Part shown: positions 5,895 to 55,952 of the stretch, one piece after another | Layout: each line of letters opens with the position of its first letter | Position numbering within the stretch: position 1 is the first letter of the stretch | IMG/VR virus record: IMGVR_UViG_3300032157_000003 | Direction: 5' to 3' (one strand) | Length of the DNA: 64,000 bases | DNA from: a virus | Made by a program: the position numbers and the translations under genes | The notes under the pieces: generated by a model | Databases searched by the model: none | The model's input: only the letters and a program-made list of their open reading frames with translations | Told to the model about the DNA's origin: nothing

Positions 5895-6665
5895 TTACGC
5901 CCCTAGATTCTTATTAGTGTTCCTAGTGTACATGATCGGATCGTCTGTATTAACCAGTCTGTGTACCCAATAACCCTCATATAGCCGGTTACCAGAACGC
6001 GGTAGCTTTCTGGCTGCGGTGAATATGTAGGGCACCAGCAGTATCTCCCCCTGCGGGCGGTGGTCCAACGGTTCATCGTTGTCCAGCCTTGGGTTCTTCA
6101 TGCGCTCCTTTAACGTCTCCGGGTTGAAGTAACGGCGTTGGAACTTCGAGTTGTTCAACTTCTTCGAGAGTTCCTCCACCTTGTAATAGGGTTGCTCATC
6201 CTCCCTGAACCGCAACACGCGGAACTGCTGGTTGGCCTCGTCGAAGGCGAGGATCGAGTAGAAGTCGACCTCGCACTTCAGCACCGTTGCCTCTTCGTCC
6301 TTCTCCAGCAGAACCTCTCCAGGCCAGATAGCCATCTGACTGATCGGGTACCACGCCTTGCTCCAGTTACTGCGACCCATCATTCGCAAGGTAACCGGCT
6401 CAGTGCGTTCGTCGTTGAAGTTCAGGGCCAGCGGCAGGGAGTCACCCTGCGTCGGCCCCACGCCAATGCTGGCCAATTCCTCCAGCAAGTCGGCCTCCAA
6501 CACCCATGCGAGCGAGCCTTCACCGTCCCTGTTCACCTCGACATCCTCGCAGTCCTCCGGCAGGCCCTCGCCACGGATGGCTTGGAAGCCCTCCACGACG
6601 TGGGACACTGCAAGGACTCGACGCCAGATGAGCTTTTCAACGGCGATCAAGTCCTGTCTGTTCAT
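5895..6665 (-). CDS. hypothetical protein
   Basis: Start MNRQDL overlaps stop of the upstream gene (ATGA); 256 aa. Confidence 0.7.
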   Translation of the reverse strand: MNRQDLIAVEKLIWRRVLAVSHVVEGFQAIRGEGLPEDCEDVEVNRDGEGSLAWVLEADLLEELASIGVGPTQGDSLPLALNFNDERTEPVTLRMMGRSNWSKAWYPISQMAIWPGEVLLEKDEEATVLKCEVDFYSILAFDEANQQFRVLRFREDEQPYYKVEELSKKLNNSKFQRRYFNPETLKERMKNPRLDNDEPLDHRPQGEILLVPYIFTAARKLPRSGNRLYEGYWVHRLVNTDDPIMYTRNTNKNLGA

Positions 6666-6931
6666 GTTGGGTAGGACTCCAACGTGACCGGCTCTTCCAG
6701 AAGGTCGGCAGGGTCGAAGGTGCGGAAACTGCCCGCCTCCACGTCCCAGCAGATGATCAGGTTCTCCGGGTACTTGCGAGGTGCCTTGCTCGGGTCCTTG
6801 GGTGGCGGCGGAGGCAGGATCGACGGGTGCAGCGATGCACGCATTTCGCGGCGCTCGCCGGTTGCCTTCTTCTGGAACACGATGCGAACCAGACCTTGTT
6901 CCAGCATTGCCATGACTTGTGCTTTGTCCAT
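6662..6931 (-). CDS. WYL-like/SH3 beta-barrel small protein (DUF2693/WYL_2-like)
   Basis: LVRIVFQKKATGERREMRAS...IICWDVEAGSFRTF matches the common phage F.KxxGxxRxM..T / .wD.e...wRsF pattern. Confidence 0.7.
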   Translation of the reverse strand: MDKAQVMAMLEQGLVRIVFQKKATGERREMRASLHPSILPPPPPKDPSKAPRKYPENLIICWDVEAGSFRTFDPADLLEEPVTLESYPT

Positions 6932-8804: not shown

Positions 8805-9529
8805 TACAAGGTCCTCACGAAGTCTTGCAACTTCTTGTACTTCTCGGCCAGCTCAGCGTTGTCCTCACGCAGCAGCGCGGCTTCCTCTATGCGCGCAGCG
8901 ATGGACTTCAGGCGAGCGTTGAACTCTTCGCCCATCGTCACGACCTCAGCGGCCAGCTCGCTCAACACGTCCAACGACTTGTTGTGAGTTGGGGCCGGGG
9001 TCGGGGTCGGTTCCTCGGCAGGGGCCGGGGCCTCTTTCAAGGCCTCGACCGGAGCCGGGGCTTCGACCACTTCCACCACCGGGGCGTCCGCCACAGGCGT
9101 GACCACCGCCGTGACCACAGCCGTAGCCTCTGCCGTGACCTCTGCCTCGACCAAAGCCGGGGCCTCGATCACAGTCTCAACTGGTTCCGGTTCCTCGACA
9201 GGGTGAATCACCACCGCTGCAACCACGACCGGCTGCGGCACCAGCATCCCCTGCTCAACCTGCTGGGGAACAGGCTTGCGGCCCGGTCGGCCACGACGCT
9301 TGAACTGGCCGGCTTTCGGCTCAGTAATCAGGCGGGCGTCCTTCAAAGCTCCCAGGCATGCAAGCAGCTTGGGTTGCTCGATGGTGCCAACCAGCTCGTT
9401 CTTTTCCAGATAGCGCTTGATCATCGGAAGGTCTTTCAGCTCGTCGTCCGACATGGCACTGAAAACCTTCTGTGCCAGTGCTGATTGTCCGCGAAGCATG
9501 GCGTCCATGCGCGTTGCCGAGGCCATCAC
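8804..9529 (-). CDS. wHTH-like protein with AT-hook-like motif and low-complexity linker
   Basis: LACLGALKDARLITEPKAGQF, then KRRGRPGRKP, a Pro/Ala/Val/Glu-rich linker and a coiled-coil end. Confidence 0.6.
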   Translation of the reverse strand: MMASATRMDAMLRGQSALAQKVFSAMSDDELKDLPMIKRYLEKNELVGTIEQPKLLACLGALKDARLITEPKAGQFKRRGRPGRKPVPQQVEQGMLVPQPVVVAAVVIHPVEEPEPVETVIEAPALVEAEVTAEATAVVTAVVTPVADAPVVEVVEAPAPVEALKEAPAPAEEPTPTPAPTHNKSLDVLSELAAEVVTMGEEFNARLKSIAARIEEAALLREDNAELAEKYKKLQDFVRTL

Positions 9530-9972
9530 AGGAAGTCCTTCAGACGCAGGTTCAGGCAGCCAGCCGCCTGTTCCAGAACTTCCATCTCAGCCGGAACCTG
9601 AATCTCGCCATCCGCCTCAGCGACGGTCAGCATGAAGTTCAGGACGATGCCAGCGTTGTCCGGGTCGTGCGCCAAATCCCCCAGCTCTTTCTTCGCGTTC
9701 ATGCGAATGATGCGAGCGCCCCCTTCCAGATAGTCAGCCTTGGCGCGATCAATGATCAGGCCCAGCTCAGCCCCAAAGCCGGCCAGTTGCGGCGCGTTGC
9801 GCAGCAGGCGGTCGGTCTTGTCCATTTCCTTCGTTCCGATCTCCCCGTCAGCACTGGCCACCCAGTAGCAGCCGTAGATCGCAGCCTGTGCAAGGTCGCG
9901 GTTCTCGAACTTCACGACGGCCTGAGTGGCTTTACGTGCGTTACGACCGAACATTTTCCCCAAACCCAACAT
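9526..9972 (-). CDS. terB: TerB-family tellurite resistance protein
   Basis: VASADGEIGTKE and TVAEADGEIQVPAEMEVL: the paired ADG.I motifs of TerB. Confidence 0.85.
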   Translation of the reverse strand: MLGLGKMFGRNARKATQAVVKFENRDLAQAAIYGCYWVASADGEIGTKEMDKTDRLLRNAPQLAGFGAELGLIIDRAKADYLEGGARIIRMNAKKELGDLAHDPDNAGIVLNFMLTVAEADGEIQVPAEMEVLEQAAGCLNLRLKDFL

Positions 9973-10226: not shown

Positions 10227-10448
10227 TTAGCTGTAACCGCGTTTGAAGTTCACCCCCCGAATCCAGAGTTTGGAGTGGGTATCAAACACAGCATTGCCAG
10301 GATTCTGCTGACGGTAAAGCGAGAAATCGCGGGTGGCCGTAGCCGGGGCAATGCCGAAGTAGTCCTCCAACTGGTCAGGCCCCACGCTGCCGTAGTGCAG
10401 CAGCAGGAAGTCGATCAGGCGCAGGCGTTGCTCTACGGCGTACCTCAT
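10227..10448 (-). CDS. stand-alone CapW/BrxR-like winged-HTH protein (copy 1)
   Basis: EQRLRLIDFLL..G.V....L.DYFGI....ATRDFSLY....PGN..FD...K.W.R...F resembles the N-terminal wHTH of WYL regulators; no WYL/WCX domain. Confidence 0.7.
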   Translation of the reverse strand: MRYAVEQRLRLIDFLLLHYGSVGPDQLEDYFGIAPATATRDFSLYRQQNPGNAVFDTHSKLWIRGVNFKRGYS

Positions 10449-10675
10449 CTCTCCGGCAGCTCCAGCAGTTGCTCATGGGTCAGGTGCGGAACTTCCCGGC
10501 TGCGCCCCGGCTGGCTGTACAGGTAGCAGGCCTTGACCGCAGTGAAGACGTCTTCAATCAGAATCCGACAGAACTTCTTGCGGTCATAGCTGAGCACCAC
10601 GCAATCGCGCACAGGTGCCAGCGCCCCTGCCTTGTCCCCGAGTTCGACAAACGAGAAGTCGGTCCACGCCTTCAT
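10445..10675 (-). CDS. hypothetical protein
   Basis: MKAWTDFSFVELGD...VLSYDRKKFC; coupled to both neighbours. Confidence 0.7.
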   Translation of the reverse strand: MKAWTDFSFVELGDKAGALAPVRDCVVLSYDRKKFCRILIEDVFTAVKACYLYSQPGRSREVPHLTHEQLLELPER

Positions 10676-11127
10676 TGCAGCGGGTTCCTTTGGTGCGAGT
10701 GCATGACCCGTTCGTAGGCCTGACAGGTCGGGCAGCACTTGTCCCACTGCGGCACGCTGGTCAGGTGGCCGTTGATCTGCTCGGCCAGTTCGTTGCCCAT
10801 GGCTTGGTCGCAGCCTTCATTCAGGGCCACGCGCCACGACACCAGTTGTTCCACCGGCACCGGGATGCGGTCCCATGGATTGAAGATCACCGGGGCCAGA
10901 ACAGGGGCTGGCGCCACCCGGTCCCATTCCATCGGGGATTCCTGGCCGGTCCAGATCAGGTTGAAAATCTCCTGAGTGCTGATGTTTTTCGCAAAGTCTT
11001 TGCGATGCCAGCCGTGCATGAAGAACGGACAGTCGCCTTCACAGCGGATGAACACGGAGACGCTGGTGAACTCAGGGTTGCGGGTGTCGAAGCGCAACTC
11101 GTCGTAGAAAGAAATACAGTCAGCCAT
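10672..11127 (-). CDS. hypothetical protein
   Basis: 151 aa; RBS GGAGGG; contains an in-frame palindrome copy. Confidence 0.65.
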   Translation of the reverse strand: MADCISFYDELRFDTRNPEFTSVSVFIRCEGDCPFFMHGWHRKDFAKNISTQEIFNLIWTGQESPMEWDRVAPAPVLAPVIFNPWDRIPVPVEQLVSWRVALNEGCDQAMGNELAEQINGHLTSVPQWDKCCPTCQAYERVMHSHQRNPLQ

Positions 11128-11140
11128 GGTGACCCTCCAG

Positions 11141-11362
11141 TTATTCGTACACACGCGCAAACGTCGCGCTACGTTCCCAGCGTTTGGTGCTGGCGTTGTA
11201 TTCCATGTTGCCGTCTGCCATTTCCCGGTACATCGCGATGTCGAGGCTGGCCTGCGCCATGCTGATCCCGCTGTAGTTCATCAGCGCGTCCCGTTGGACA
11301 TAGCCGTAGTACGCCAGCAGGAAGTCGATCAGGAGCATGCGCCGTTCGATAGCGTAGTTCAT
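11141..11362 (-). CDS. stand-alone CapW/BrxR-like winged-HTH protein (copy 2)
   Basis: MNYAIERRMLLIDFLL...GISMAQASLDIAMY; 73 aa, 32/73 identical (ungapped) to 10227-10448; RBS GGGGGAGG. Confidence 0.75.
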   Translation of the reverse strand: MNYAIERRMLLIDFLLAYYGYVQRDALMNYSGISMAQASLDIAMYREMADGNMEYNASTKRWERSATFARVYE

Positions 11363-11730
11363 GCCTCCCCCTTGCCCGTGATCGGTCCGACCATGTAGGT
11401 CGGTGGGCGTGGTAGGCCCCCGCCAATCGGGCGCCACAGGTGCAGGCAGTTCGGGTGGAACGACACGTACTCGGAGTGCGGCGGATGGAGTTGCATCACG
11501 CAATCCTCCGGCCCCCAGCACAGGTCTTTGATCCGGTTCATAACCTGCCAGCTCGGCATCACGTCAGGGTTGCTCACGCTGACGTGTTCCCAGCCGTCGC
11601 CGTCACCGGCCATGATTTTCCACTCCACGCCAAGGTAGACGACGAGGAACATGCCGTTGTTGCCGTAGCTTTCATCGGAGCCGAACAGCCCTTCACGGAC
11701 CCGACACCTTTCAGGAACCTTGAATGTCAT
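11359..11730 (-). CDS. conserved phage protein (DUF7694-like)
   Basis: GWEHVSVS...PSWQVMNRIKDLCWGPEDCVMQLHPPHSEYVSFHPNCLHLWRP. Confidence 0.75.
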   Translation of the reverse strand: MTFKVPERCRVREGLFGSDESYGNNGMFLVVYLGVEWKIMAGDGDGWEHVSVSNPDVMPSWQVMNRIKDLCWGPEDCVMQLHPPHSEYVSFHPNCLHLWRPIGGGLPRPPTYMVGPITGKGEA

Positions 11731-12617: not shown

Positions 12618-12842
12618 TTAATCCTTTTCCCTCAATCGTTTGTCAGAGTTAAAGTTGATTCGACGCTTGCCTTCAAAGTTCAGGCGAGCATAGAACGTGC
12701 CCAAGCCGGGGATTCGCAGGCGGTCGTCTTCCCAGAGAGCGTCTGCGATGGAGCTGATCATTGCCTCCAGCATGCGCTCGGCGGATCGGCGGTCTACGCC
12801 CGACTTGGCCGCGATGCGGTCCACCAGTTCTGTCTTCAGCAT
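12618..12842 (-). CDS. HU/IHF-like DNA-binding protein (short arm)
   Basis: MLKTELVDRIAAKSGVDRRSAERMLEAMISSIADAL..DDRLRIPGLGTF; 74 aa. Confidence 0.85.
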   Translation of the reverse strand: MLKTELVDRIAAKSGVDRRSAERMLEAMISSIADALWEDDRLRIPGLGTFYARLNFEGKRRINFNSDKRLREKD

Positions 12843-12895: not shown

Positions 12896-12924
12896 ATTGT
12901 ACACTATATGGATACTATTGTCAA
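12896..12924 (-). promoter_or_regulatory. sigma70 promoter
   Basis: TTGACA-N17-TACAAT on the minus strand upstream of the HU-like gene. Confidence 0.8.
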
Positions 12925-16334: not shown

Positions 16335-16366
16335 TCCCCGGTGGCAGTGTACACTGCCACCGGGGA
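16335..16366. repeat. perfect 32-bp palindrome
   Basis: TCCCCGGTGGCAGTGT|ACACTGCCACCGGGGA, no loop, intergenic. Confidence 0.9.
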
Positions 16367-16370
16367 GCTG

Positions 16371-17054
16371 TCAGATGGCCTCTTCGTCAGCGGCGGTCAG
16401 CCCCCCTTGTTTGCCGTCCAGCCGATCAAGCCCTGACTCAGCAGCCAGAATGTTGACCGCTTCATAGGGCTTCAGCTTGTCCTCCATCAGCCCTGCGACC
16501 ACCTGCGGCTTTTCGTAGTAGGTGTCGTTCAACTCCAGGCCATAGAAGCGCTTCAGGTGGGCCTCCAACTTGCGGGTGTAGACCTCCTGCTCCGATTGGT
16601 CACCGGGCAGCAGCGGCAGGCGGGCCTCCACCGCCCAGCGCTTGATCATCACCTTCATCTCTGCGAGCTCCGGCACCATCCAGTTGTCCGAGATTTGGTA
16701 CCAGTCCTTGTCGGAGGTTTCGCGCAGCAGGAAGCTCGCAAAGTCTTTGCGTTTATGGTCAGGCCAGTGGAAGGCCGGTTCGAGGAAGTCGTAGGCGAAC
16801 ACGCCGACGCCCTGTTCCTCTAGCGCCTCCCAATCGACCATGGACTTCAGGGTTTGGCAGGCGTAGGTGGCGTACATCAGCGCGCCACCCATCAGCCGGT
16901 CGAAGCCCGTGTTGATCCGGGCCGACAGGTTCTTCTTGTTGCCCTTGGCGTCCAAGTCCATGTACAGCAGCTTGGCCAGCCCGCCGAACAGGGTTCCGAC
17001 GTCAATGTCATCGCCACGGGCAATGGTCACGCTATCCAGCCTTGTCAGGTTCAT
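16371..17054 (-). CDS. hypothetical protein
   Basis: 227 aa; ATGA coupling. Confidence 0.7.
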   Translation of the reverse strand: MNLTRLDSVTIARGDDIDVGTLFGGLAKLLYMDLDAKGNKKNLSARINTGFDRLMGGALMYATYACQTLKSMVDWEALEEQGVGVFAYDFLEPAFHWPDHKRKDFASFLLRETSDKDWYQISDNWMVPELAEMKVMIKRWAVEARLPLLPGDQSEQEVYTRKLEAHLKRFYGLELNDTYYEKPQVVAGLMEDKLKPYEAVNILAAESGLDRLDGKQGGLTAADEEAI

Positions 17055-17703: not shown

Positions 17704-18150
17704 TCAGTCGATGAACCCAGCAACAGCCCTGCCATCCATGAAGTCACCTTCCTTTTCCGACAGGTCGAACACGAACTCGCGCAGGTTCTGGTACAGGGTG
17801 GAATAATCGTTGGCCAGCTTGGCTTGCCCGTCCTCGTAGAACTTCCAGCTCAGCATGTTGACGACCAGCAGAGTCAGGCCGGCGCCGAACGCCACCGCCT
17901 GCATGTTGCAGTTGCTGTAGTAGTTGCTCGGAACCGTCACGTCGTAGGTCATATGGTCGGCGGGATACCAGAAGCCGACAGTGCCTTCTTCGTTGGTTAC
18001 GAAGTTCAGGCAGCCACCGTCATAGCTATCCTTGGCAAAGTCCCGCGCCATGGCACAGAAGGCGTTCTCCAGTGGCATGGCGAATACCCCGAACACCTTG
18101 TTCACGGCGTTCGCCATCTTGGTTGAGTCGCTTGGGGTGAATTGCTTCAT
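17704..18150 (-). CDS. antirestriction protein (ArdB/KlcA family)
   Basis: E..FCAMARDFAKDSYDGGCLNF...GFWYP...NYYS..MQAVAFG...Y..LREFV...AVAGFID matches the ArdB/KlcA pattern (YxGGxW, P, AG, terminal ID). Confidence 0.75.
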   Translation of the reverse strand: MKQFTPSDSTKMANAVNKVFGVFAMPLENAFCAMARDFAKDSYDGGCLNFVTNEEGTVGFWYPADHMTYDVTVPSNYYSNCNMQAVAFGAGLTLLVVNMLSWKFYEDGQAKLANDYSTLYQNLREFVFDLSEKEGDFMDGRAVAGFID

Positions 18151-18203
18151 GTTGCAGTCCTCGGTGAAGGGGGCTCGCAAAGTTATTTTGCGAGCCGGGT
18201 TGG

Positions 18204-55230: not shown

Positions 55231-55713
55231 ATGGCGACTCTTGGCGACTACACCACTACCGAAGCTGTCCGTGGCTGTCTTGGCATTGACGCCAGCGACT
55301 GCCCGGACGCAATGATGGTCGACTCCAACCTCGACCTTGAGTTGGTGCTGGACCTCGATTCCTTCCTGCCGACCCACGCTGCGTTGTATGCCACAGGGAC
55401 AGGCGGTGGTGCGACGGCCCCTCAGAAGGCCGTCTCCAACCGCATCAAGCTGTACTCGCAGTGGTTCTGCGCGCTGGAGATGGCTCGCCGCCCCCTGACC
55501 GTTCCGCAAATCAACACGGACGGCAAGGCGCAGTTCGACCGATTCAAGGTCGATCTGGAACGGTTGGCAGAACTGTGTGCTATCAAGGTGGCGAAGTACC
55601 GGGCCGACCTGCAAGAGCTGGTCAACAACGTGGTCAAGCCGGTTGGCTTGCCGATCTCGTTGGTGAGCGCCGCGCAGCCGACTCAAGACCCAATTACCGA
55701 GGCGATTCAGTAA
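55231..55713 (+). CDS. head-tail adaptor (neck) protein
   Basis: [14 protein letters not shown] start; position. Confidence 0.65.
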
Positions 55714-55952
55714 TGGATAACCAGCACAAGAAGATCAGCGGCTACCGCGACCTGAGCCAAGAAGAGATCGACGGCATGAACTCGATCAAGGCTCTGGAGG
55801 CGGAGTTGGGCGCGCTGTTCCTGAAGCTCTGCGAAGTGGAAGGTGTCGATCACCGTCACATGGCGCTGGCTCGCACCAACCTGCAACAGGGCTTCATGTG
55901 GTTCGTCCGCGCCATCGCCAAACCTGTCGATCCGTTCGCCTCGGGGAAGTAA
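55713..55952 (+). CDS. acb2: anti-CBASS cyclic-nucleotide sponge Acb2
   Basis: [26 protein letters not shown]...[24 protein letters not shown]; Y11 and K26 in register with Acb2 as recalled. Confidence 0.9.

What the first reader, a model, noticed from the sequence alone, without database searches (positions are those of the whole stretch)
10227..11362. Two stand-alone CapW/BrxR-like winged-HTH proteins: possible sensor-less repressors of host defence operons
Seen: two 73-aa ORFs about 700 bp apart, 32/73 identical without gaps, with the pattern E.R...IDFLL..G.V....L..Y.GI..A.A..D...Y...GN..Y/F...K.W.R...F. Established: this matches the N-terminal DNA-binding wHTH of WYL regulators CapW/BrxR. 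These repress CBASS, BREX and other defence loci and derepress through their WYL sensor domain. Here WYL and WCX are absent. Inference: constitutive operator binders that keep defence genes off, or dominant-negative mimics. Two diverged copies could cover different operator families. I know of no characterised anti-defence protein of this type. A lone WYL-like SH3 protein is also encoded at 6662-6931.
Basis: partly seen in the sequence, partly recalled or inferred. Interest (0 to 1): 0.8.

Follow-up and report, generated by a model that had tools for sequence, protein, structure and literature searches.

The report
Phage sensor-less BrxR/CapW winged-helix pair
An uncultured phage carries two small genes that encode only the DNA-binding head of the bacterial repressors (BrxR/CapW) that keep anti-phage defence genes switched off, without the sensor that normally releases them. 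They belong to an unstudied, almost purely phage-borne family that may lock host defences off, but what DNA they bind is still unknown.

Summary
Window 10227-10448(-) and 11141-11362(-) encode two 73-aa paralogues (32/72 identical, E 2e-22) under purifying selection.

Both are complete BrxR/CapW-type winged-helix domains and nothing more. They match PDB BrxR/CapW by sequence (E 4e-8 and 5e-10). Their relatives carry Pfam WHD_BrxR. The AF2 model (pLDDT 96) superposes on BrxR/CapW at TM 0.86-0.98, and the next fold scores 0.64.

The stand-alone form is a conserved family carried almost only by phages. Every one of about 70 phage and prophage copies inspected stops right after the domain. In 400 sampled bacterial genomes the domain sat in ~300-aa full-length regulators in 44 of 46 matches.

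The upstream copy keeps all four experimentally defined CapW DNA-contact residues. The downstream copy belongs to an 'ATATRDF' helix class that is typical of stand-alone proteins. Such mixed pairs recur in at least three phage lineages.

A family-specific hydrophobic patch coincides with a predicted homodimer interface.

The claim that they hold host defence operons off is plausible (the phage also carries Acb2) but untested. I found no operator, and the host is unknown.

I found no paper on this family. The scan noted similar proteins in two other genomes. This is a new variant of a known kind.

The parts
11141..11362 (-). P0002: stand-alone BrxR/CapW-type winged helix, 73 aa, CapW-like recognition helix (S-M-A-Q-A-S-L-D-I). 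It is the upstream member of the pair.
   Evidence: One search gives the translation. PDB phmmer hits Pa CapW 7TB5 at 5e-10, and also 7TB6, 9C5G, 7QFZ and 7T8K; precomputed Pfam PF26109 (WHD_BrxR); contact residues R24, S34, Q37, S39 correspond to Sm CapW R32, S42, Q45, S47 (PMC9122588); dN/dS 0.37.
10227..10448 (-). P0001: stand-alone BrxR/CapW-type winged helix, 73 aa, 'ATATRDF' recognition-helix class. It is the downstream member of the pair.
   Evidence: One search gives the translation. PDB phmmer hits BrxR 7QFZ at 3.8e-8 and CapW 7TB6/7TB5 at about 1e-5. AF2 pLDDT 95.9, Foldseek TMq 0.98 to 7QFZ and 7TB6; the 95% orthologue carries PF26109; dN/dS 0.21.
11359..11730 (-). DUF7694 gene. Its stop overlaps the P0002 start (ATGA). 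It is part of a cassette that recurs with wHTH pairs in other phages.
   Evidence: PF24746, 2e-27; the overlap; found near WHD genes in the L016, L018-L023, L029, L034 and L086 phages; a very large family (at least 977 clusters), AF2 pLDDT 89.6, no PDB fold match.
10672..11127 (-). 151-aa Cys-rich protein of unknown function between the two wHTH genes. It is conserved next to wHTH pairs in a second phage lineage.
   Evidence: phmmer 1e-38 to 1e-58 in L018-L023, L029 and L034; no Pfam or PHROG family, and the Atlas search was uninformative.
10445..10675 (-). 76-aa protein of unknown function. It is ATGA-coupled on both sides (to the 151-aa gene and to P0001).
   Evidence: sequence; no family; found only in the window's own lineage.
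12896..12924 (-). Sigma-70-like promoter (TTGACA-17-TACAAT, 11/12). It probably heads the leftward unit that holds both wHTH genes, as about the 6th and 9th genes.
   Evidence: No terminator-like site on the minus strand between it and the wHTH genes. This is a consensus match only, with no expression data.
6662..6931 (-). It lies in the same leftward arm. No demonstrated link to the wHTH genes.
   Evidence: PF10902 at 27.3 bits against a cutoff of 26.7; PHROG 1086, 1e-11; present with WHD genes only in the window's own lineage (L001/L013).

Best explanation
Each gene encodes a complete BrxR/CapW-type winged-helix DNA-binding domain with no WYL sensor and no WCX dimerisation domain. This part is shown. 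Inferred: each protein dimerises through a family-specific hydrophobic patch (L15, Y19, Y30) on helices 1 and 2. It then binds a roughly 20-bp inverted repeat with the same contact residues as BrxR/CapW. Because it has no single-stranded-DNA sensor, it cannot be released by the infection or DNA-damage signal. The genes appear to be expressed early, from a host-type promoter. The most likely targets are operators of host WYL-controlled defence islands (CBASS, BREX and the like). There the proteins would act as signal-blind super-repressors that stop defence induction. The CapW-like copy (P0002) and the 'ATATRDF'-class copy (P0001) would cover two operator classes. Blocking induction would keep stoichiometric counter-defences, such as this phage's Acb2 sponge, from being out-titrated. 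The confidence given is for the whole statement including the host target; the domain identity alone is near certain.
For: Identity. PDB phmmer hits only BrxR/CapW N-termini. Pfam WHD_BrxR is precomputed on P0002 and on all relatives. The AF2 model has pLDDT 95.9. Foldseek's top 15 hits are all BrxR/CapW at TMq 0.86-0.98; the next fold scores 0.64.

DNA-binding competence. R8 is invariant and aligns with BrxR-Efer R17, which is essential for DNA binding (PMC9122601). P0002 keeps R24/S34/Q37/S39, which align with Sm CapW R32/S42/Q45/S47; mutating those abolishes binding (PMC9122588).

Viral form of a host domain. All of about 70 copies in roughly 50 phage or prophage loci end 0-7 aa after the domain. 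Of 209 domain hits, 147 have no C-terminal extension. IMG/VR gave 36 loci, against 4 in one genome each of 185,579 species. In 400 sampled genomes, 44 of 46 matches lie in frames of 277-428 aa.

Conserved target surface. The recognition helix is among the best-conserved parts across phages of 44-61% GC. Mixed-class pairs in the same gene order recur in at least three lineages.

Dimer. The homodimer model scores ipSAE 0.47, best control 0.02. That mark was reached by 20 of 30 solved homodimers and 1 of 23 monomers. The runs agree in 100% of their contacts and the partner pLDDT is at least 91. The pass may come from memory of BrxR/CapW dimers. Interface residues 14-19 and 25-30 coincide with residues conserved only in stand-alone proteins: L15 81%, Y19 80%, Y/F30 88%.

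Context. The phage encodes Acb2 (PF24729, 5.6e-21), so it meets CBASS. The genes sit in an accessory early operon behind a sigma-70-like promoter. No operator-like site of the inferred chromosomal types occurs in the 64-kb window. No inverted repeat is shared among 37 phage loci.

Rationale. WYL-mediated derepression raises defence-protein levels and overcomes stoichiometric phage inhibitors (bioRxiv 10.1101/2025.11.13.688357).
Against: No target DNA has been identified, and the host is unknown. Published work shows that CapW/BrxR derepression is not needed to stop a first infection. A repressor made after entry cannot remove defence proteins that already exist, so the benefit to a lytic phage may be small. 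Operators of full-length relatives differ even when their recognition helices are similar, so shared contact residues do not prove shared operators. P0001 lacks three of the four CapW contact residues and has P24 in place of the near-invariant R24. The genes travel in a partly conserved cassette with DUF7694 and a 151-aa protein, which could point to a phage-internal role. The negative operator and inverted-repeat scans used perfect short arms and would miss degenerate sites.
Confidence: 0.4

Rival explanations
1. They are the phage's own regulators. As constitutive wHTH repressors they would bind operators in phage promoters. They could be Aca-like autorepressors of an early accessory or anti-defence operon, or an early-to-middle switch, with no action on host genes.
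For: Small HTH/wHTH proteins in phage early regions usually regulate phage promoters (general knowledge). The genes lie in a unit headed by a strong sigma-70-like promoter. They are embedded in a cassette with DUF7694 and a 151-aa protein that is shared with another lineage. The phage has a 25-copy palindrome that needs a reader. The promoter spacer contains ATCCATATAGT, 10/11 identical to part of the palindrome upstream of a Frateuria CapW-like gene. That match was noticed post hoc and is not significant.
Against: Both genes are mid-operon and translationally coupled. They are not at a divergent promoter or an operon end. No inverted repeat is shared among 37 non-redundant phage loci despite a nearly invariant recognition helix. 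The dispersed palindrome occurs only in this phage's own lineage and not in other phages with wHTH pairs. It has a variable 1-3-nt centre and covarying extended arms, which suits a hairpin better than a dimer operator. Self-regulators normally co-diversify with their operators, whereas this recognition helix is conserved across very different phages.
Confidence: 0.33
2. They work through protein contacts or in another non-repressor way. They could poison host BrxR/CapW dimers (dominant negative), compete for operators without repressing, or act as a DNA-binding accessory to the neighbouring DUF7694 or 151-aa proteins.
For: Helix 1 carries residues conserved only in stand-alone proteins (Y3, A4, E6, L15, Y19), so it could be a protein-binding surface. 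The cassette is partly conserved.
Against: BrxR/CapW dimers are held by the WYL and WCX domains, which are absent here. The stand-alone-specific patch is predicted to be self-complementary. DUF7694 has at least 977 clusters, far more than the wHTH family, so it is not a dedicated partner. All DNA-contact positions shared with the full-length family (R8, R24, D41, Y45) stay at 90-100%, which argues that DNA binding is the selected function.
Confidence: 0.2
3. They are decaying N-terminal remnants of full-length WYL regulators, or chance ORFs.
For: Each covers only the first quarter of a ~295-aa family architecture.
Against: The length is conserved at 72-75 aa with the stop right after the wing in about 70 copies. 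At least 147 clusters at 50% identity have this form. dN/dS is 0.21 and 0.37. Starts are coupled and have Shine-Dalgarno sites. The fold is confidently predicted. No WYL/WCX-like sequence follows either gene.
Confidence: 0.02

Closest known systems
CapW (wHTH-WYL-WCX repressor of CBASS; P. aeruginosa PA17 7TB5, S. maltophilia 7TB6, R. leguminosarum 9C5G)
   Same: Same winged-helix fold and sequence family. P0002 matches 7TB5 at E 5e-10 over residues 4-72. The P0001 model superposes at TMq 0.94-0.98. P0002 keeps the four residues whose mutation abolishes CapW DNA binding, plus the Q-A-S-L-D-I recognition helix of Pa CapW.
   Different: There is no WYL sensor, no WCX domain and no helix-4 linker, so the ssDNA signal cannot act and the native dimer interface is missing. 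The genes are in a phage early operon, not divergent from a CBASS operon. The residues L15, Y19 and Y30 are conserved here but not in CapW.
BrxR (wHTH-WYL-WCX repressor of BREX and defence islands; E. fergusonii 7QFZ, Acinetobacter 7T8K)
   Same: This is P0001's best PDB match (7QFZ, E 3.8e-8; TMq 0.98, rmsd 0.6 A over 73 residues). The invariant R8 aligns with BrxR-Efer R17, which is essential for DNA binding. The P0001 helix A-P-A-T-A-T-R-D-F resembles BrxR-Efer A-P-S-V-A-T-Q-D-F.
   Different: The same domain losses as for CapW. P0001 has T37 and P24. T37 occurs in 52% of stand-alone proteins and was not among the commonest residues in 55 full-length ones. No 10-11-bp inverted repeat with a 5-bp spacer lies nearby.
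Other phage stand-alone WHD_BrxR proteins: Stenotrophomonas phage Sonora CPT_Sonora_088 (annotated 'hypothetical protein'), and a 97-aa protein of Pantoea phage LIET2 noted earlier in this scan
   Same: The same stand-alone architecture in an array of small early genes. Sonora gp088 is 52-59% identical to the window proteins and matches Pa CapW at 5e-15 and Sm CapW at 4e-13.
   Different: These are single copies, whereas the window has a mixed-class pair. None has been characterised.
Aca proteins (anti-CRISPR-associated HTH autorepressors of phage anti-defence operons; from general knowledge)
   Same: Small dimeric DNA-binding proteins encoded within phage accessory or anti-defence operons.
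   Different: The fold family differs (HTH, not WHD_BrxR). Aca genes sit at the operon end, with inverted-repeat operators in their own promoter. Here the genes are mid-operon and no such repeat was found.

Membership tests
Pfam PF26109 WHD_BrxR (BrxR-type winged-helix domain) | Significant match to the domain model | tested here: met
   The precomputed PF26109.1 hit is listed for P0002 itself, for P0001's 95% orthologue and for all 66 relatives. The local Pfam copy lacks this model, so I could not recompute it. Independent phmmer hits to BrxR/CapW PDB chains support it.
Pfam PF26109 WHD_BrxR (BrxR-type winged-helix domain) | Three-helix winged-helix fold that superposes on solved BrxR/CapW | tested here: met
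   AF2 predicts H3-19, H24-31, H35-48 and a beta-hairpin at 53-64, pLDDT 95.9. Foldseek gives TMq 0.86-0.98 to 7QFZ, 7TB6, 7TB5, 9C5G and 7T8K; the next fold scores 0.64.
BrxR/CapW wHTH-WYL-WCX transcription regulators | Central WYL (Sm-like SH3) ligand/ssDNA-sensing domain | tested here: not met
   Both proteins end at residue 73, right after the wing. The downstream genes have no WYL match.
BrxR/CapW wHTH-WYL-WCX transcription regulators | C-terminal WCX domain that forms the domain-swapped dimer | tested here: not met
   Absent, for the same reason. The architecture is described in PMC9122588.
BrxR/CapW wHTH-WYL-WCX transcription regulators | DNA-contact residues (BrxR-Efer R17; Sm CapW R32, S42, Q45, S47) | tested here: met
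   P0002 has R8, R24, S34, Q37 and S39, all conserved. P0001 has R8 only, with P24, A34, T37 and T39. So the feature is met for P0002 and only partly met for P0001.
BrxR/CapW wHTH-WYL-WCX transcription regulators | Homodimer | tested here: inconclusive
   The model supports a symmetric dimer: ipSAE 0.47 against a best control of 0.02. That mark was reached by 20 of 30 solved homodimers and 1 of 23 monomers. Run agreement is 100% and pLDDT at least 91. The pass may come from likeness to solved BrxR/CapW dimers. No measurement exists.
BrxR/CapW wHTH-WYL-WCX transcription regulators | Encoded beside a defence system, with a palindromic operator in the shared promoter | tested here: not met
   The genes are in a phage early operon among small proteins of unknown function. 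PADLOC gave no hit. No suitable inverted repeat lies nearby.
Phage anti-defence proteins (functional class) | Demonstrated inhibition of a defence system | not testable with these tools
   Only circumstantial: early accessory location, Acb2 in the same genome, and a phage-restricted distribution.
Aca-type autorepressors | Last gene of an anti-defence operon, with inverted-repeat operators in its own promoter | tested here: not met
   Both genes are mid-operon and ATGA-coupled on the upstream side. The promoter at 12896-12924 has no clear palindrome. No inverted repeat is shared across 37 loci.

The most novel reading that the evidence does not exclude
Phages use sensor-less copies of the BrxR/CapW DNA-binding domain as signal-blind super-repressors. 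These would occupy the operators of host WYL-controlled defence islands and block infection-induced up-regulation of CBASS, BREX and linked systems. Mixed pairs (CapW-like plus 'ATATRDF' class) would silence two regulons at once and protect stoichiometric inhibitors such as Acb2. That would be anti-defence by repressor mimicry at the level of transcription.
Probability: 0.35. Interest if true: 0.85.

Novelty: new variant of a known kind. Interest (0 to 1): 0.6.

Why it matters
Known phage counter-defences mostly attack defence proteins or their signals. A phage protein that copies only the DNA-binding head of the defence repressor, and so cannot be switched off, would be a different strategy: it would keep the defence genes silent.

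It would also give meaning to the recent finding that WYL-mediated induction exists to out-titrate phage inhibitors. The phage would be answering at that same regulatory step.

The family is broad. I counted at least 147 clusters at 50% identity, in Mu-like, integrase-bearing, ~80-kb and >200-kb phages, and none has been studied.

A cultured example exists: Stenotrophomonas phage Sonora gp088. Its host species is the one in which CapW was solved, so the idea can be tested directly.

Even if the targets prove to be phage promoters, these proteins are minimal, non-inducible versions of a defence regulator. They could be used to map WYL regulons.

Tried and rejected
- **Family libraries.** The local Pfam, NCBIfam and PADLOC scans of both proteins gave nothing significant. 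PF26109 is missing from the local Pfam copy. PHROGs gave only weak hits.
- **Known phages.** Megablast of the region against known phages found nothing. The large terminase is only about 35% identical to Vibrio phage terminases, so no host could be assigned. No whole genome is held for this window.
- **Tree.** A tree of 172 domains is poorly resolved (73 columns). It needs 2-6 switches between the stand-alone and full-length states, so no origin or direction can be claimed.
- **The phage palindrome as operator.** TCGCAAAG-N1-3-CTTTGCGA has 25 copies. I judge it unlikely to be the operator. It occurs only in this phage's own lineage. Its centre length varies, and its arms extend with covarying flanks.
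- **Shared inverted repeats.** A search over 37 non-redundant phage loci found nothing above shuffled controls.
- **Operators of chromosomal relatives.** A subset with the helix AAATRD[IL] has ATCATCAT..ATGATGAT palindromes. PQAS-class genes have ATAGT..ACTAT-like palindromes. These are not uniform within a helix class, and none occurs in the window above chance.
- **CapW probe sequences.** They are not in the held text or supplements.
- **Resident regulators.** Two of four prophage-bearing genomes also hold a full-length regulator. The Frateuria MAG pair shares the P-Q-A-S-L-D-L helix, but that motif is common in the family and a MAG may mix sources.
- **Neighbours.** DUF7694 has no PDB fold match. 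The 151-aa protein has no informative Atlas hit.
- **ArdB/KlcA.** The orthologue in L001 carries a precomputed PF03230 hit. My local scan of the window copy at 17704-18180 found nothing at E <= 0.001, although the two proteins are homologous (2e-48).
- **WYL_2.** I found no co-occurrence with the wHTH genes outside this lineage.
Full report
**Observation.** Each is 73 aa, and they lie 692 bp apart. BLASTP gives 32/72 identities without gaps, E 2e-22.

P0002 starts at an internal ATG that has a GGGGGAGG Shine-Dalgarno. Both starts overlap the stop of the gene upstream (ATGA), so both are translationally coupled within a leftward operon. Against the orthologues in a related 66-kb metagenomic phage contig (L001), dN/dS is 0.21 and 0.37.

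The window is a phage, with large terminase, portal, major head protein and primase. It has no close cultured relative: the terminase is about 35% identical to those of Vibrio phages, and megablast finds nothing. The source contig is 89 kb, and no host genome is held.

**What the proteins are.** phmmer against all PDB sequences hits only the N-terminal ~70 residues of BrxR and CapW.
- P0001 hits 7QFZ at 3.8e-8 and 7TB6/7TB5 at about 1e-5.
- P0002 hits 7TB5 at 5e-10, then 7TB6, 9C5G, 7QFZ and 7T8K.

All relatives, and P0002 itself, carry the precomputed Pfam family PF26109, which a later output names WHD_BrxR. The local Pfam copy lacks that model, which explains my empty hmmscan.

An AF2 model of P0001 built on 54 relatives has pLDDT 95.9 and the topology H-H-H-hairpin. 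In Foldseek against the PDB the first 15 hits are all BrxR/CapW chains, at TMq 0.86-0.98 and rmsd 0.5-1.4 A. The next fold (IclR) scores 0.64.

**The stand-alone form is a phage family, not a fragment.** A profile search of 1.84 billion cluster representatives found 1729 clusters at E <= 1e-3.
- The roughly 70 best are all short.
- Full-length proteins of ~290 aa begin at about E 1e-15.
- Of 209 full domain matches, 147 have no C-terminal extension.

In roughly 50 phage or prophage loci that I fetched, all of about 70 copies end 0-7 residues after the wing.

A pattern scan found 36 loci in IMG/VR, but only 4 in one genome each of 185,579 prokaryote species. Those four are Dechloromonas, Luteimonas, a Frateuria MAG and a Geobacter MAG, and all are stand-alone. 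Conversely, in 400 sampled genomes of one class, 44 of 46 domain matches sat in open frames of 277-428 aa, which is the wHTH-WYL-WCX architecture.

The carriers are diverse. They include Mu-like phages (between gam and gemA/mor), an integrase-bearing phage, PolA-type phages, ~80-kb phages and contigs over 200 kb.

One cultured phage has a copy. Stenotrophomonas phage Sonora CPT_Sonora_088 is annotated 'hypothetical protein' and matches Pa and Sm CapW at 5e-15 and 4e-13.

**Anatomy.** R8 is invariant in both stand-alone and full-length proteins. It aligns with BrxR-Efer R17, which is essential for DNA binding. The Sm CapW residues whose mutation abolishes DNA binding (R32, S42, Q45, S47) align with positions 24, 34, 37 and 39.
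- P0002 has R, S, Q, S, plus a Q-A-S-L-D-I helix like that of Pa CapW.
- P0001 has P, A, T, T within A-T-A-T-R-D-F.

T37 is the commonest residue in stand-alone proteins (52%). It is not among the commonest in 55 full-length ones, which have A 49% and Q 34%.

The two paralogues are as far from each other (44% identity) as each is from the nearest full-length regulators (44-46%). The tree cannot resolve origins.

Mixed pairs recur, with a [QC]-A-S-class gene followed by an ATATRDF-class gene. They occur in the window's lineage and in the L018-L023/L029/L034 group. L026 has two adjacent copies of different helix classes (P-Q-A-T-R-D-F and P-Q-A-S-L-D-F). L003 has two near-identical ATATRDF copies.

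Residues conserved only in the stand-alone family are L15 (81%), Y19 (80%), Y/F30 (88%) and D29 (75%). They fall on the surface that a homodimer prediction puts in the interface, residues 14-19 and 25-30.

That prediction scored ipSAE 0.47 against a best control of 0.02. The mark was reached by 20 of 30 solved homodimers and 1 of 23 monomers. The runs agree in 100% of their contacts, and the partner pLDDT is at least 91. Because BrxR/CapW dimers are solved, the pass may partly reflect memory.

**Context in the window.** A strong sigma-70-like promoter at 12924-12896(-) scores 11/12. It probably drives this gene order:
- HU-like
- DUF3310
- two small genes
- DUF7694
- P0002
- the 151-aa protein
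- the 76-aa protein
- P0001
- a Zn-ribbon protein
- TerB-like

DUF7694 and the 151-aa protein also accompany wHTH pairs in a second lineage. DUF7694, however, is a huge family of its own and has no PDB fold match.

Elsewhere the phage encodes Acb2 (PF24729, 5.6e-21), so it meets CBASS.

**What do they bind?** This is the open point.

The 25-copy palindrome TCGCAAAG-N1-3-CTTTGCGA is an unlikely operator. It occurs only in this lineage. Its centre length varies. Its arms extend by covarying flanks, as in a hairpin.

No inverted repeat is shared among 37 non-redundant phage loci.

I inferred candidate operators upstream of 31 chromosomal full-length relatives. One example is ATCATCAT..ATGATGAT before genes with an AAATRD[IL] helix. 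They are not uniform within a helix class, and none occurs in the window above chance.

A Frateuria MAG holds both a stand-alone copy and a full-length CapW-like gene with the same P-Q-A-S-L-D-L helix. That is suggestive only.

**Mechanism and odds.**
- Shown: both genes encode sensor-less BrxR/CapW winged helices, and the family is phage-borne and under selection.
- Inferred: they are dimeric sequence-specific DNA binders that no ssDNA signal can release.

For the target I put about 0.40 on host WYL-regulated defence operators, that is super-repressor mimicry. Five things support this:
- the exclusive kinship to defence regulators;
- the retained contact residues;
- the helix conserved across unrelated phages;
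- the phage-only distribution;
- Acb2 in the same genome.

A recent preprint adds a rationale: derepression works by out-titrating phage inhibitors.

Against it, derepression is dispensable for stopping a first infection, and no operator match was found.

Phage self-regulation gets about 0.33. Protein-contact or other roles get about 0.2. Gene remnants get about 0.02.

**Novelty.** Four full-text searches found no paper on stand-alone WHD_BrxR proteins or on repressor-mimic anti-defence. The nearest paper concerns a T7-type kinase/shutoff protein that lowers dnd transcription, which is a different mechanism.

Earlier notes of this scan describe the same kind of protein in Pantoea phage LIET2 and in one other genome. 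I did not re-test those.

I class this as a new variant of a known kind. The domain is known. The stand-alone, paired, phage-borne form and its proposed role are new.

Noticed in passing
window 7022-58668 (25 sites, e.g. 8129, 19965, 31930, 33496, 54949): The dispersed palindrome TCGCAAAG-N1-3-CTTTGCGA has 25 exact core copies, against 0.03 expected. Most lie just 5' of ribosome-binding sites of genes on either strand. The arms often extend by covarying flanks (up to 15 nt), as in an RNA or DNA hairpin. It is present in the related contig L001 but not in other phages that carry wHTH pairs.
   Followed up: partly
window 55713-55952 (+): A 79-aa protein with the Acb2/Tad1 hairpin domain (PF24729, E 5.6e-21). 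This is a cyclic-nucleotide sponge, so the phage encounters CBASS- or Thoeris-type defence.
   Followed up: partly
window 12896-12924 (-): A strong sigma-70-like promoter (TTGACA-17-TACAAT) lies upstream of the HU-like gene. Its spacer contains ATCCATATAGT, 10/11 identical to part of the palindrome upstream of a Frateuria CapW-like gene (L053). I noticed this post hoc, and it is not statistically significant.
   Followed up: partly
window 16335-16366: A perfect 32-bp palindrome (16-nt arms, no spacer) overlaps a weak promoter-like site just downstream of the gene at 16371-17054.
   Followed up: no
window 11362-11730 (-): DUF7694 protein. The family is very large in phages and prophages (at least 977 clusters), the AF2 model is confident (pLDDT 89.6), and there is no PDB fold match. 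Invariant W47-x-H49, H82-P83 and H97-x-W99 suggest a functional site.
   Followed up: partly
window 9526-9972 (-) and 12618-12842 (-): A TerB-like protein (PF05099; PHROG 632, 'tellurite resistance') and a truncated HU-like DNA-binding protein (PF00216) lie in the same early operon.
   Followed up: no
window 17704-18180 (-): This is the homologue (2e-48) of a protein in L001 that carries a precomputed Antirestrict (PF03230) hit. My local Pfam scan of the window copy found nothing at E <= 0.001, so the ArdB/KlcA call is unconfirmed.
   Followed up: partly
L056-L059 (chromosomal loci of sampled genomes): Full-length wHTH-WYL regulators with the recognition helix [KG][AE]AAATRD[IL] have ATCATCAT-N1-4-ATGATGAT palindromes about 145 nt upstream of the domain. 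These are candidate operators for that subclass.
   Followed up: partly
L084 3992-4219 (MZ326860.1 59853-60080): Stenotrophomonas phage Sonora CPT_Sonora_088 is annotated 'hypothetical protein'. It is a stand-alone CapW-like winged helix with all CapW DNA-contact residues. It is a cultured system, and its host species is the one whose CapW structure is solved.
   Followed up: partly
L003 8001-8876: An integrase-bearing phage contig carries two near-identical ATATRDF-class wHTH genes about 440 bp apart. A 900-bp stretch with no called gene lies upstream of the first.
   Followed up: no
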